Source: Escherichia coli
GTDB lineage: Bacteria; Pseudomonadota; Gammaproteobacteria; Enterobacterales; Enterobacteriaceae
Strand: one strand, 5' to 3'
NCBI RefSeq assembly: GCF_048403405.1
Contig: NZ_CP183129.1
DNA length: 64,000 bases
This document shows positions 8,535-13,046 of the stretch, piece after piece. The notes under the pieces were generated by a model. It ran no database searches. It saw only the letters and a program-made list of their open reading frames with translations, and was not told the DNA's origin. Numbering within the stretch: the stretch's first letter is position 1; every line of letters starts with the position of its first letter. A program made the position numbers and the translations under genes.

Positions 8535-10603
<2,069 letters not shown>

Positions 10604-10610
10604 ATAAAAC

Positions 10611-10637
10611 GGGAGGCGAAGGTGCCTCCTGTTTTTA
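10611..10637 (+). terminator. rho-independent terminator downstream of envZ
   Basis: Hairpin ggaggc-gaaggt-gcctcc followed by tgttttt. Confidence 0.6.
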
Positions 10638-10931
10638 GATTGTTTTCAATTGATTGATAATGAAAGGATTCGCTTGCAAAAGCAGGAGCAATTTTCGGGG
10701 TGCTCCGGTAGGTTGACGGCGTTTGGTTTCCCAGCTTTTGACCAGGTCATAACTTACCCCTACGGCGACAGCAAAATCTTGCTGACGTAAACCCGTTGCT
10801 TCACGGATCGCTTTTACATCGATTTCGCTAAAAGTATGGACGTGCTCTGGTTCAGGCGCTTCTTCACCCTTTTCGATGCGTACCATTTCTTCTGCGCTGG
10901 CAAGAAGATCAGCAAATAATTCGTCTTTCAT
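10635..10931 (-). CDS. putative type II antitoxin, XRE-family helix-turn-helix protein (YiaG/HigA-like)
   Basis: 98-aa ORF; HTH region GLRQQDFAVAVGVSYDLVKSWETKRRQP and C-terminal LLLLLQANPFIINQL resemble E. coli YiaG-type XRE regulators; 58 bp downstream of, and co-directional with, the toxin ORF. Confidence 0.6.
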   Translation of the reverse strand: MKDELFADLLASAEEMVRIEKGEEAPEPEHVHTFSEIDVKAIREATGLRQQDFAVAVGVSYDLVKSWETKRRQPTGAPRKLLLLLQANPFIINQLKTI

Positions 10932-10989
10932 CTGTTTTCAATGCCTCCGTTGGCATTTCGGCCATGGTGGAATTTGTGGAGCTTCAACA

Positions 10990-11307
10990 TTAAAGCAGCT
11001 TCTCGGACAATAGTTTCAATGCCTTTCTTTGTTCTTCTGTTAAATCATCCTGTTCATTTTTAGGATAAATCAACGCCAGATAAATTCGGCCATTGCGTGT
11101 TACGTTGTAATAAATTATCCGAATGCCACCCCGTTTCCCCATTCCAGAACGGTTCCAGCGAATTTTTCTAAAACTGCCTGTGCCTGCGATAATGTCACCG
11201 GCAGTGGGATCTTGAATGAGTAGTTCCTGAAAAGCCCGGAACTCATCATCAGGTAACAATAACTGGCGGCGTTTGCTAAATCCTTGTAGTTCAATAAACG
11301 TGAACAT
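10990..11307 (-). CDS. putative type II toxin, RelE/ParE superfamily (HigB/Gp49-like)
   Basis: 105-aa ORF; motif GGIRIIYY...RIYLALIYPKNEQDDLTEEQ typical of RelE/HigB-like mRNA interferase folds; AGGA about 6 nt upstream of ATG; toxin-first order as in higBA. Confidence 0.6.
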   Translation of the reverse strand: MFTFIELQGFSKRRQLLLPDDEFRAFQELLIQDPTAGDIIAGTGSFRKIRWNRSGMGKRGGIRIIYYNVTRNGRIYLALIYPKNEQDDLTEEQRKALKLLSEKLL

Positions 11308-11331
11308 AATGCATCCTGCGGTCTATTGATA

Positions 11332-11353
11332 ATTATAAGTGTACCGTGTACAT
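11332..11353 (-). promoter_or_regulatory. putative promoter -10 (TATAAT) and adjacent imperfect palindrome (candidate operator) of the toxin-antitoxin operon
   Basis: On the minus strand TATAAT lies about 24 nt upstream of the toxin ATG; tgtac-cgt-gtaca inverted repeat directly upstream. Confidence 0.35.
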
Positions 11354-11376
11354 ATTGGTAGCTAATTAGATATAAA

Positions 11377-11408
11377 AAAACCCCTTATCCGTTTGGATAA
11401 GGGGTCAA
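11377..11408 (-). terminator. rho-independent terminator downstream of pck
   Basis: Hairpin ccccttatcc-gtttg-gataagggg flanked by A/T runs on both sides. Confidence 0.7.
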
Positions 11409-11423
11409 TGAGATTTCAGCTGA

Positions 11424-13046
11424 TTACAGCTTCGGACCAGCCGCTACCAGCGCGGCACCCGCAGGGGTGTCGGTGTATTTATCGAAGTTGTCGATAAACA
11501 GTTTCGCCAGGGTTTCAGCTTTTTCCTGCCACTGTTCCGGAGAAGCGTAGGTATTACGCGGATCGAGGATCTTAGTGTCAACACCCGGCAGCTCGGTCGG
11601 AATCGCCAGGTTAAACATCGGCAGAGTGAAGGTTTCTGCGTTATCCAGCGAACCGTTGAGGATGGCGTCGATAATGGCGCGGGTATCTTTAATCGAGATA
11701 CGTTTGCCAGTGCCGTTCCAGCCGGTGTTAACCAGATACGCCTGCGCGCCTGCCGCCTGCATACGTTTCACCAGCACTTCTGCGTACTGAGTCGGGTGCA
11801 GCGACAGGAATGCCGCGCCGAAGCAGGCGGAGAAAGTTGGCGTCGGTTCGGTGATGCCGCGCTCTGTACCAGCCAGTTTGGCGGTGAAGCCAGAGAGGAA
11901 GTGGTACTGGGTTTGATCGGCAGTCAGACGAGAAACCGGCGGCAGCACACCAAAGGCGTCTGCGGTCAGGAAGATAACTTTAGTTGCGTGGCCCGCTTTG
12001 GAAACCGGCTTAACGATGTTTTCGATGTGATAGATCGGATAAGAAACGCGGGTGTTCTCGGTTTTTGAACCATCATCAAAGTCGATAGTGCCATCTTCAC
12101 GCACGGTGACGTTTTCCAGCAGCGCATCACGACGGATAGCGTTGTAGATTTCAGGTTCCGCTTCTTTCGACAGCTTGATAGTTTTTGCGTAGCAGCCGCC
12201 TTCGAAGTTAAATACGCCGTCATCGTCCCAGCCGTGTTCGTCATCGCCAATCAGGCGACGTTTCGGGTCGGTGGAAAGGGTGGTTTTACCGGTGCCGGAA
12301 AGGCCGAAGAACACCGCAACATCGCCTTTCTCACCAACGTTGGCGGAGCAGTGCATAGAAGCGATACCTTTCAGCGGTAGCAGGTAGTTCATCATTGAGA
12401 ACATCCCTTTCTTCATTTCGCCGCCGTACCAGGTGCCGCCAATCAGCTGCATGCGCTCGGTCAGGTTAAACGCCACGAAGTTTTCGGAGTTCAGACCCTG
12501 TTCTTTCCACTGCGGATTAGTGCACTTCGCGCCGTTCATAACGATAAAGTCTGGTTTGAAACCTGCCAGCTCTTCATCGCTCGGGCGAATAAACATGTTT
12601 TTGACAAAATGCGCCTGCCAGGCCACTTCGGTGATGAAACGGACGGAAAGACGAGTATCCGGGTTCGCACCACAGAAAGCGTCGACAACGAACAGACGTT
12701 TGCCGGAAAGCTGTTTGGTCACCAGGCCTTTCAGATGCTGCCAGGTTTCCGGAGAGAGAGGTTTGTTGTCGTTCTTACCTTTGCCTTTGTCTGCCCACCA
12801 GAAAGTATCGCGAGTGGTATCGTCACGGACGATATACTTATCTTTTGGTGAACGACCGGTGAAGATCCCGGTATCGACGGCAACGGCACCCAGATTAGTT
12901 AACACCCCGCGCTCATAACCTGTCAGGCTCGGATCGAGCTCTTCCTGATACAGCAGGTCGTAGCTTGGGTTGTAAACGATATCATGTACGTCACTGATAC
13001 CATAAGCCTCGAGTTCTTGCGGGGTCAAACCATTGTTAACGCGCAT
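11424..13046 (-). CDS. pck: phosphoenolpyruvate carboxykinase (ATP)
   Basis: 540 aa from [17 protein letters not shown] (internal Met of the 563-aa ORF); kinase P-loop GLSGTGKTT; matches E. coli PckA. Confidence 0.95.

What the first reader, a model, noticed from the sequence alone, without database searches (positions are those of the whole stretch)
11325..11360. Candidate autoregulatory operator overlapping the TA promoter
On the minus strand a perfect TATAAT hexamer (plus-strand 11332-11337) lies about 24 nt upstream of the toxin ATG with AGGA as RBS. Immediately upstream is the imperfect inverted repeat tgtac-cgt-gtaca (11340-11352), where a -35/spacer operator would sit. Type II TA operons are usually autorepressed by the antitoxin binding such a palindrome. 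The arms are short (5 bp), so this is suggestive only.
Basis: inference. Interest (0 to 1): 0.3.

Follow-up and report, generated by a model that had tools for sequence, protein, structure and literature searches.

The report
Conserved toxin-antitoxin promoter operator site
The short palindrome is real and is almost certainly the DNA site where the antitoxin of a HigB2/HigA2-type toxin-antitoxin pair sits to shut off its own promoter, which is an ordinary arrangement for such gene pairs.

Summary
On the minus strand the sequence reads TACCAA-ta-TGTACacgGTACA-ct-TATAAT, then 14 nt, AGGA, 6 nt and the ATG.

In this one sequence the palindrome is no better than chance: 53% of shuffles give an equal one. 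Comparison changes that. In 27 related loci from about 20 genera plus the window (92 kb), all 45 GTAC-N3-GTAC sites lie 21-98 nt upstream of the toxin start. None lies elsewhere. In 22 loci the 13-bp site sits exactly 2 nt from the -35 hexamer position and 2 nt from a TAnnnT -10, filling the 17-bp spacer. The GTAC columns never vary and the 3-nt spacer varies freely. Eighteen loci carry a second site.

The genes are a HigB2-like toxin (PF06296) and a NadS/HigA2-like helix-turn-helix antitoxin. Across about 100 wider family members, GTAC-N3-GTAC occurs only with antitoxins whose recognition helix carries SWE..RR. Other helices go with other N3-spaced palindromes.

The geometry matches MqsA (AACCT-N3-AGGTT) and is close to Vibrio cholerae HigA2. 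It is a new member of a known kind, of modest interest.

Side note: 107 ST73-type E. coli genomes (CFT073, Nissle 1917) match an allele with a 7-bp half-site deletion. In the two genomes I read, this goes with a toxin nonsense mutation.

The parts
11340..11352 (.). Operator: TGTAC-N3-GTACA, with the invariant GTAC cores at 11341-11344 and 11348-11351. It fills 13 of the 17 bp between the -35 position and the -10.
   Evidence: It is the only GTAC-N3-GTAC in the 64-kb window. The same site sits at the same offset in 22 loci, and the GTAC columns carry full information content.
11332..11337 (-). -10 hexamer TATAAT, 2 nt downstream of the operator.
   Evidence: A TAnnnT hexamer is present exactly 2 nt after the site in 22 of 22 anchored loci.
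11355..11360 (-). -35-position hexamer TACCAA. It is weak (2 of 6 matches to TTGACA) and lies 2 nt upstream of the operator.
   Evidence: Relatives outside the pckA-envZ site have TTGAnn at this exact position. The scan tool did not call it.
11361..11378 (-). A+T-rich tract between the upstream terminator and the -35 position. It may act as an UP-like element. It takes the place of the distal operator found in most relatives.
   Evidence: The function is inferred only.
11379..11406 (-). Hairpin of an intrinsic terminator downstream of pckA; its T-run follows at 11372-11378. It lies immediately upstream of the toxin-antitoxin promoter and is part of the inserted island.
   Evidence: 12 pairs followed by TTTTTTT. 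It is absent from the empty envZ-pckA site of strain NQ3.
11314..11317 (-). Ribosome-binding site AGGA, 6 nt before the toxin ATG. The transcription start is inferred near 11323-11326.
   Evidence: Relatives have cAGGGA at the same place. The transcription start is an inference from the -10 position.
10990..11307 (-). Toxin gene, 105 aa, HigB2-like member of the RelE/ParE superfamily.
   Evidence: PF06296 at 27.6 bits against a cutoff of 27. V. cholerae HigB-2 structures match at E 1.3e-23.
10635..10931 (-). Antitoxin gene, 98 aa, NadS/HigA2-like. It has an N-terminal toxin-binding tail and a C-terminal XRE helix-turn-helix domain. The recognition helix lies around residues 61-73 (SYDLVKSWETKRR).
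   Evidence: NadS NF041265 at 75.2 bits against a cutoff of 60, plus HTH_3 and HTH_31. HigA-2 in the PDB matches at E 2.7e-4. The AlphaFold model has pLDDT 85, and its best fold matches are HigA2 entries 5JAA, 8A0X and 5J9I (rmsd 1.1-1.5 A over 60 residues).
10606..10635 (.). Bidirectional terminator hairpin shared by envZ (+) and, presumably, the toxin-antitoxin operon (-).
   Evidence: terminator-like sites on both strands.

Best explanation
The 13-bp element TGTAC-N3-GTACA (11340-11352) is the operator of a chromosomal higB2-higA2 (nadS)-type toxin-antitoxin operon on the minus strand.

A dimer of the antitoxin most likely places one helix-turn-helix recognition helix (SYDLVKSWETKRR) on each GTAC. 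The dimer could be free or bound to toxin. The site fills the spacer between the -35 position and the TATAAT -10, so a bound repressor would exclude RNA polymerase and the operon would repress itself.

- **Shown:** the sequence anatomy, the gene families, the conservation and exact positioning of the site, and its link to the antitoxin helix class.
- **Inferred:** that the antitoxin is the binding protein, that binding represses, that the promoter is the one drawn, and where transcription starts.
For: **1. Gene identity.**
- Toxin: PF06296, and HigB-2 structures at E 1e-23.
- Antitoxin: NadS family at 75 bits, an XRE helix-turn-helix, and a full-length match to HigA-2. The predicted fold is closest to the HigA2 structures, including the HigB2-HigA2-operator complex 8A0X.

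**2. Restriction to the promoter zone.** In 27 loci from other genera plus the window (92,123 bases) there are 45 GTAC-N3-GTAC sites. About 1.4 would be expected from uniform base frequencies. All 45 lie between -98 and -21 of the toxin ATG, and none lies elsewhere.

**3. Exact architecture.** In 22 loci the layout is -35 position, 2 nt, TGTAC-N3-GTACA, 2 nt, TAnnnT. The GTAC columns are invariant. The spacer and flanks carry about 0 bits.

**4. A second site.** Eighteen loci have one, 29-31 bp upstream in 15 of them. In the three marine loci the spacing is 23-42 bp and the arrangement differs, yet the motif is kept.

**5. A matching conserved helix.** The recognition helix is nearly invariant wherever the motif is kept. 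Among 98 non-redundant family loci, 32 of 35 with an SWE..RR helix have the motif, against 0 of 63 with other helices. Those others carry different N3-spaced palindromes: CTAC/GTAG, TTAC/GTAA, CGGG/CCCG, CGCC/GGCG and CTCC/GGAG.

**6. Experimental precedent in relatives.**
- V. cholerae HigA2 footprints a single inverted repeat running from the -35 over the -10 and represses (PMC11006873).
- A. baumannii HigA2 represses, with the toxin as corepressor (PMC5906591).
- MqsA binds AACCT-N3-AGGTT, the same 5-N3-5 geometry (PMC4894380).

**7. Natural variation.** 1,220 of the 1,330 E. coli carriers match the 65-nt promoter segment at 95% identity or more. The variant alleles I inspected have no change in the GTAC cores. 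The 107 genomes with a 7-bp deletion of one half-site match the allele group that carries a toxin nonsense mutation, confirmed in the two genomes read.
Against: - No binding, footprint, reporter or transcription-start data exist for this module or any close relative, and I found none in the held library.
- This locus has one site and a poor -35 hexamer (TACCAA), so promoter strength is uncertain.
- Three of the four base-contacting residues of V. cholerae HigA2 differ here (R68 to D, E71 to K, N72 to S; R77 kept). Specificity therefore cannot be transferred from the crystal structure.
- The contacted tetramers would be centred 7 bp apart, against 9 bp in V. cholerae.
- The loci compared are related to each other, so the Fisher P of 1e-22 overstates independence.
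Confidence: 0.85

Rival explanations
1. It is a chance palindrome with no function. A 5-bp inverted repeat next to an A+T-rich promoter-like stretch is expected by accident.
For: From this sequence alone it cannot be told from chance. 53% of shuffles of the 71-nt region contain an equal repeat. 25% of window shuffles contain a GTAC-N3-GTAC.
Against: There are 45 sites in 92 kb of related loci, all within the 78-nt promoter zone. The cores are invariant next to freely varying spacers, and the offset to the -10 is fixed.
Confidence: 0.02
2. It is a binding site for a factor not encoded by the module. Candidates are a host global regulator, or another antitoxin such as YefM, whose operators have TGTACA cores.
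For: On the minus strand the window site contains a TGTACA hexamer. YefM-YoeB operators are built from TGTACA cores that overlap the -10 (PMC1802561).
Against: The motif travels with the module. It is found in unrelated chromosomal contexts, on plasmids and on viral contigs, and in genera from Escherichia to Psychromonas. It also tracks the module's own antitoxin helix. YefM needs paired TGTACA cores 12 bp centre to centre, whereas here the GTAC cores are 7 bp apart. TGTACA is not conserved either: relatives have TGTACC, TGTACG or TGTACT.
Confidence: 0.05
3. It is an RNA-level element: a small hairpin in read-through transcripts from pckA, or in a leader, acting on termination, stability or translation.
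For: It lies just downstream of the pckA terminator, and its arms can pair.
Against: The hairpin is worth only -2.5 kcal/mol, no better than shuffles (z 0.14; 111 of 200 fold as well). Across loci the arms are conserved in sequence with no compensatory change. The site lies upstream of the conserved -10, so it is not in the operon's own transcript.
Confidence: 0.02
4. It is a core-promoter or DNA-structure feature rather than a repressor site. The GTAC pair might shape the spacer for RNA polymerase, or the repeat might be a scar from insertion of the island.
For: The proximal site always occupies the -35/-10 spacer.
Against: Identical sites also occur upstream of the -35 hexamer in 15 loci, and downstream of the -10 in the Amphritea and Thalassolituus loci. 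Spacer sequence has no known need for a specific palindrome. The site is not at the island boundaries. Other helix classes put different palindromes at the same place.
Confidence: 0.04

Closest known systems
Vibrio cholerae higBA2 operator, bound by HigA2 (TGTACGC-N5-GCGTACA; PMC11006873; PDB 8A0W/8A0X)
   Same: - Same toxin family (E 1e-23) and same antitoxin architecture and fold.
- Toxin-first operon.
- A single inverted repeat lying between the -35 and the -10.
- The antitoxin acts as a dimeric XRE-type repressor.
   Different: - The arms are 4-5 bp with a 3-nt spacer, against 7 bp with a 5-nt spacer. The conserved tetramer therefore sits at positions 2-5 from the dyad, against contacts at positions 3-6 in V. 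cholerae.
- The shared letters TGTAC are in a different register, so the resemblance is coincidental.
- Three of the four base-contacting residues differ.
- The Lys/Thr cluster of the disordered tail that boosts DNA affinity in V. cholerae (residues 24-32, KLTLKTHHV) is acidic and proline-rich here (EEAPEPEHV).
Escherichia coli MqsR/MqsA and its palindrome AACCT-N3-AGGTT (PMC4894380)
   Same: - Identical 5-N3-5 operator geometry.
- Toxin-first operon.
- The antitoxin binds DNA through a C-terminal XRE helix-turn-helix domain. The MqsA-family model TIGR03830 hits residues 28-95 at E 1.4e-7, below its cutoff. The MqsA C-terminal domain 3FMY aligns with a TM-score (target-normalised) of 0.77.
   Different: - MqsA has an N-terminal zinc-binding domain that binds the toxin, not a disordered tail.
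- MqsR is not a PF06296 protein.
- The recognised tetramer is ACCT, not GTAC.
- Whether the promoter holds one or two palindromes was not checked here.
Acinetobacter baumannii plasmid higBA2 (PMC5906591)
   Same: Same family. Reporter assays show repression by the antitoxin, with the toxin as corepressor.
   Different: The operator was not mapped in that paper. An A. baumannii plasmid homologue fetched here carries TACTAC-AAT-GTAGTA, and its antitoxin has a different recognition helix.
yefM-yoeB operators (paired TGTACA cores, 12 bp centre to centre; PMC1802561)
   Same: GTAC-containing palindromes that overlap the -10 of a toxin-antitoxin promoter.
   Different: The antitoxin fold is unrelated (Phd/YefM, stated from my own knowledge). 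The core spacing is 12 bp against 7 bp. The flanking bases that make up TGTACA are not conserved here.

Membership tests
HigB2/HigA2 (higBA2-type) type II toxin-antitoxin module | The toxin belongs to the HigB2 branch of RelE/ParE (Pfam PF06296). | tested here: met
   PF06296 at 27.6 bits against a cutoff of 27. V. cholerae HigB-2 chains match at E 1.3e-23 over residues 3-100.
HigB2/HigA2 (higBA2-type) type II toxin-antitoxin module | Reverse gene order: the toxin gene comes first and the antitoxin gene second, on one strand. | tested here: met
   Toxin 11307-10990, then antitoxin 10931-10635, both on the minus strand, 58 nt apart.
HigB2/HigA2 (higBA2-type) type II toxin-antitoxin module | The antitoxin has an N-terminal toxin-binding tail and a C-terminal XRE helix-turn-helix dimerisation and DNA-binding domain. 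| tested here: met
   Full-length alignment to HigA-2 at E 2.7e-4. NadS NF041265 at 75 bits against a cutoff of 60, plus HTH_3 and HTH_31. The model matches the HigA2 C-terminal domain at rmsd 1.1-1.5 A.
HigB2/HigA2 (higBA2-type) type II toxin-antitoxin module | The toxin arrests growth (ribosome-dependent mRNA cleavage) and the antitoxin neutralises it. | not testable with these tools
   Needs expression and rescue assays. Indirect hint only: toxin genes carry premature stops in several lineages while the antitoxin stays intact.
Autoregulatory operator of a type II toxin-antitoxin promoter | An inverted repeat that overlaps the core promoter elements. | tested here: met
   The site fills the spacer, 2 nt from the TATAAT and 2 nt from the -35 position.
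Autoregulatory operator of a type II toxin-antitoxin promoter | Conserved in sequence and position across orthologous loci, beyond the conservation of its surroundings. | tested here: met
   45 of 45 sites lie in the promoter zone. The GTAC columns are invariant while the spacer and flanks vary.
Autoregulatory operator of a type II toxin-antitoxin promoter | Site specificity follows the DNA-reading residues of the module's own antitoxin. | tested here: met
   SWE..RR helix: 32 of 35 loci have the motif. Other helices: 0 of 63, and they carry different N3-spaced palindromes. The loci are not phylogenetically independent.
Autoregulatory operator of a type II toxin-antitoxin promoter | The antitoxin, or the toxin-antitoxin complex, binds the site, and binding lowers transcription. 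| not testable with these tools
   Shown only for relatives: V. cholerae (PMC11006873) and A. baumannii (PMC5906591).
Sigma-70 promoter | -35 and -10 hexamers 16-18 bp apart that meet the consensus thresholds. | tested here: inconclusive
   The -10 is a perfect TATAAT and the spacer is 17 bp. The -35 hexamer TACCAA matches 2 of 6, so the scan did not call it. Relatives have TTGAnn at that position. The transcription start has not been mapped.
MqsR/MqsA family | The antitoxin has an N-terminal CxxCG zinc-binding domain and reaches the TIGR03830 cutoff. | tested here: not met
   TIGR03830 scores 31.3 bits against a cutoff of 61.8 and covers only the helix-turn-helix part. The 98-aa antitoxin contains no cysteines.

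The most novel reading that the evidence does not exclude
The NadS-type antitoxin may do more than repress itself. In ST73 strains (CFT073, Nissle 1917, ATCC 25922) the toxin is dead and half the operator is deleted, yet the antitoxin is intact. It could be kept as an orphan regulator of other GTAC-N3-GTAC sites, or as immunity against incoming HigB2-type toxins on plasmids and phages. Loss of the operator half-site might even have come first and selected for the toxin nonsense mutation.
Probability: 0.1. Interest if true: 0.45.

Novelty: new member of a known kind. Interest (0 to 1): 0.3.

Why it matters
About a quarter of complete E. coli genomes (1,330 of 5,426) carry this uncharacterised module between envZ and pckA. 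The result gives it a precise, testable 13-bp operator.

The same site (GTAC-N3-GTAC) applies to a whole clade of HigA2/NadS antitoxins in Enterobacterales, in marine gammaproteobacteria, on plasmids and on viral contigs. The family-wide pairing of recognition helices with N3-spaced palindromes is a ready-made data set on how small XRE repressors change specificity. It could also supply orthogonal repressor-operator pairs.

It does not change how toxin-antitoxin autoregulation is understood.

Tried and rejected
- **Promoter scan.** It did not call this promoter, because the -35 hexamer is too weak. The promoter assignment therefore rests on the comparative alignment.
- **Larger palindrome.** The 28-bp imperfect palindrome at 11319-11346 (I1, 75% complementary) is not conserved in related loci. 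I dropped it.
- **RNA hairpin reading.** Rejected: -2.5 kcal/mol, z 0.14.
- **YefM cross-binding.** Rejected on geometry and because TGTACA is not conserved.
- **Transferring V. cholerae HigA2 specificity.** Rejected, because three of the four contact residues differ. The shared TGTAC is in another register.
- **A second nadS paralogue in E. coli.** PGAP annotates one in K-12 BW25113 (PMC12350097). A blastn search found only the envZ-pckA copy, so a diverged paralogue could not be examined.
- **Strain HS-02.** Its fused 177-aa ORF at this site is an assembly artefact caused by homopolymer errors.
- **PADLOC.** No defence-system assignment for the toxin.
- **Literature.** Searches for a study of this E. 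coli module or of a GTAC-N3-GTAC operator found nothing in the held library.
- **L026 (Pseudomonas).** A partial match with no site; I treated it as not orthologous.

Full report
**What is in the sequence.** The window is Escherichia-like. ompR-envZ lie on the plus strand and end at 10603. pckA lies on the minus strand and ends at 11424. Two small minus-strand genes sit between them.

Read on the minus strand, the finding region is: terminator hairpin (11406-11379) plus T-run; an A+T-rich stretch; TACCAA (11360-11355); ta; TGTACACGGTACA (11352-11340); ct; TATAAT (11337-11332); 14 nt; AGGA (11317-11314); 6 nt; ATG (11307).

The arms are perfectly complementary. The element is really two GTAC tetramers 7 bp apart, so it is both an inverted and a direct repeat.

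**Is it more than chance?** Not on its own.
- Shuffles of the 71-nt region contain an equal 5-bp-arm repeat 53% of the time.
- GTACNNNGTAC occurs once in the 64 kb, against 0.30 expected.
- The consensus promoter scan did not call the promoter, because the -35-position hexamer is poor.

**What the genes are.**
- The first gene (105 aa) reaches Pfam PF06296. It matches the V. cholerae HigB-2 toxin structures at E 1e-23.
- The second gene (98 aa) is a NadS-family protein (75 bits, cutoff 60) with an XRE helix-turn-helix. It aligns over its full length with V. cholerae antitoxin HigA-2.
- An AlphaFold model (pLDDT 85) is closest to the HigA2 structures. These include the HigB2-HigA2-operator complex 8A0X and the C-terminal domain 5J9I (rmsd 1.1-1.5 A). 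The MqsA C-terminal domain ranks further down.

This is therefore a toxin-first higBA2-type module. It is present at this site in 1,330 of 5,426 complete E. coli genomes. The empty site has only a 75-bp envZ-pckA spacer.

**Comparative test.** A scan of one genome per species returned 27 loci with toxins 57-100% identical. They include E. albertii, Leclercia, Citrobacter, Klebsiella, Kluyvera, Yersinia, Photorhabdus, Budvicia, Edwardsiella, Psychromonas, Amphritea, Thalassolituus and Photobacterium.
- In these loci plus the window (92,123 bases) there are 45 GTAC-N3-GTAC sites, against about 1.4 expected. All lie between -98 and -21 of the toxin ATG, and none lies elsewhere.
- I anchored 22 loci on the site. 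The layout is constant to the base pair: -35 hexamer (TTGAnn in most), 2 nt, TGTAC-N3-GTACA, 2 nt, TAnnnT.
- The GTAC columns are invariant. The 3-nt spacer and everything outside the promoter hexamers carry almost no information.
- Eighteen loci have a second site. In 15 of them it lies 29-31 bp upstream, beyond the -35 hexamer. In the three marine loci the two sites are 23-42 bp apart. In Amphritea and Thalassolituus they straddle the -10.
- Loci at the pckA-envZ site (the window, E. albertii, Citrobacter, Kluyvera) have only the proximal site, a degenerate -35 hexamer and a stronger -10.

**Link to the antitoxin.** The antitoxin's recognition helix (VSYDLVKSWETKRRQPTG) is almost invariant across these loci.

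I widened the set with eight plasmid loci and 80 viral-contig loci, with toxins down to about 37% identity.
- Among 98 non-redundant loci, 32 of 35 antitoxins with an SWE..RR helix have GTAC-N3-GTAC within 150 nt upstream. None of the 63 with other helices does.
- Of the three misses, two come from my start-codon calls (L019 and L024 do have sites). The third, L044, has one-mismatch sites.
- Other helix classes carry other palindromes with the same 3-nt spacer, such as CTAC/GTAG, TTAC/GTAA, CGGG/CCCG, CGCC/GGCG and CTCC/GGAG.
- The clade with a V. cholerae-like helix carries 7-N5-7 repeats, for example TATACGC-N5-GCGTATA.

The loci are related to each other, so the nominal P value overstates independence. 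The pattern is still the one expected if the module's own antitoxin reads the site.

**Mechanism.** Known relatives work this way.
- V. cholerae HigA2 footprints a single inverted repeat running from the -35 over the -10. It binds as a dimer through helix alpha-3 and represses a reporter (PMC11006873).
- A. baumannii HigA2 represses its promoter, with the toxin as corepressor (PMC5906591).
- MqsA binds AACCT-N3-AGGTT (PMC4894380).

I infer that an antitoxin dimer reads the two GTACs and blocks RNA polymerase by occupying the spacer. In the dyad frame, the conserved tetramer lies at positions 2-5. In V. cholerae the contacts lie at positions 3-6. The geometry is therefore close to V. cholerae and identical to MqsA.

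Specificity cannot be copied from V. cholerae, because three of its four contact residues differ here. The lysine-rich part of its disordered tail that boosts DNA affinity is acidic here.

**Rivals.**
- The RNA hairpin is negligible, and the arms show sequence conservation rather than covariation.
- A host factor or YefM (paired TGTACA, 12 bp apart) does not fit. The motif travels with the module, and TGTACA is not conserved.
- A pure promoter-structure role does not explain identical sites outside the spacer.

**Natural variation.** The 65-nt promoter segment is at least 95% identical in 1,220 of the 1,330 carriers. In the variant alleles I inspected, the changes avoid the GTACs.

A group of 107 genomes has a 7-bp deletion of one GTACACG unit. 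It includes ATCC 25922, Nissle 1917, CFT073 and ABU 83972. The deletion removes a half-site and shortens the spacer to 10 bp. Both genomes of this group that I read also have an E22 stop in the toxin, and the antitoxin is intact.

**Verdict.** It is a new, well-defined member of a known kind, an autoregulatory toxin-antitoxin operator. I found no study of this module or motif in the held library. Interest is modest.

Noticed in passing
window 11340-11352, compared with L036 (ATCC 25922) and L123: 107 E. coli genomes of the ST73 type (CFT073, Nissle 1917, ABU 83972, ATCC 25922) carry a 7-bp deletion of one GTACACG unit. It removes one operator half-site and shortens the -35/-10 spacer from 17 to 10 bp. 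The two genomes I read also have a toxin E22 stop, while the antitoxin protein is intact.
   Followed up: partly
window 11372-11406: The hairpin terminator downstream of pckA is missing from E. coli genomes that lack the module (strain NQ3, 75-bp envZ-pckA spacer). It belongs to the roughly 0.8-kb inserted segment and shields the toxin-antitoxin promoter from pckA read-through. The same hairpin precedes the module in Citrobacter and Kluyvera.
   Followed up: partly
L028-L035 and L040-L119, upstream of the toxin starts: Across the HigB2/HigA2 family, the palindromes upstream of the toxin keep a 3-nt spacer but change their core tetramer with the antitoxin recognition helix. Examples are GTAC, CTAC, TTAC, CGGG, CGCC and CTCC. 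A V. cholerae-like clade uses 7-N5-7 repeats.
   Followed up: partly
L024, L025 and L027 (also L022 and L023): Several species have a truncated toxin gene (28-58 codons). L024, L025 and L027 keep an intact antitoxin and perfect GTAC-N3-GTAC sites. For L022 and L023 my script recovered no antitoxin ORF.
   Followed up: no
L004 and L005 (Citrobacter), just downstream of the -10: The Citrobacter loci have an extra lone GTAC 2 nt after the TATAAT (TATAATttGTAC), which is absent from the window. It may be a third half-site or may be chance.
   Followed up: no
L121 (record labelled E. coli DH5alpha, 4.83 Mb): A record labelled DH5alpha carries the intact module between envZ and pckA. Its size and this content look unlike K-12, so the label may be wrong. 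Separately, PGAP annotates a nadS gene in K-12 BW25113 (PMC12350097) that blastn with this antitoxin gene does not find.
   Followed up: no
window 10932-10989: A 58-nt gap separates the toxin stop from the antitoxin start. In relatives the gap ranges from a 4-nt overlap to 85 nt. I did not examine whether it holds an internal promoter or a translational signal. It contains no GTAC-N3-GTAC.
   Followed up: no
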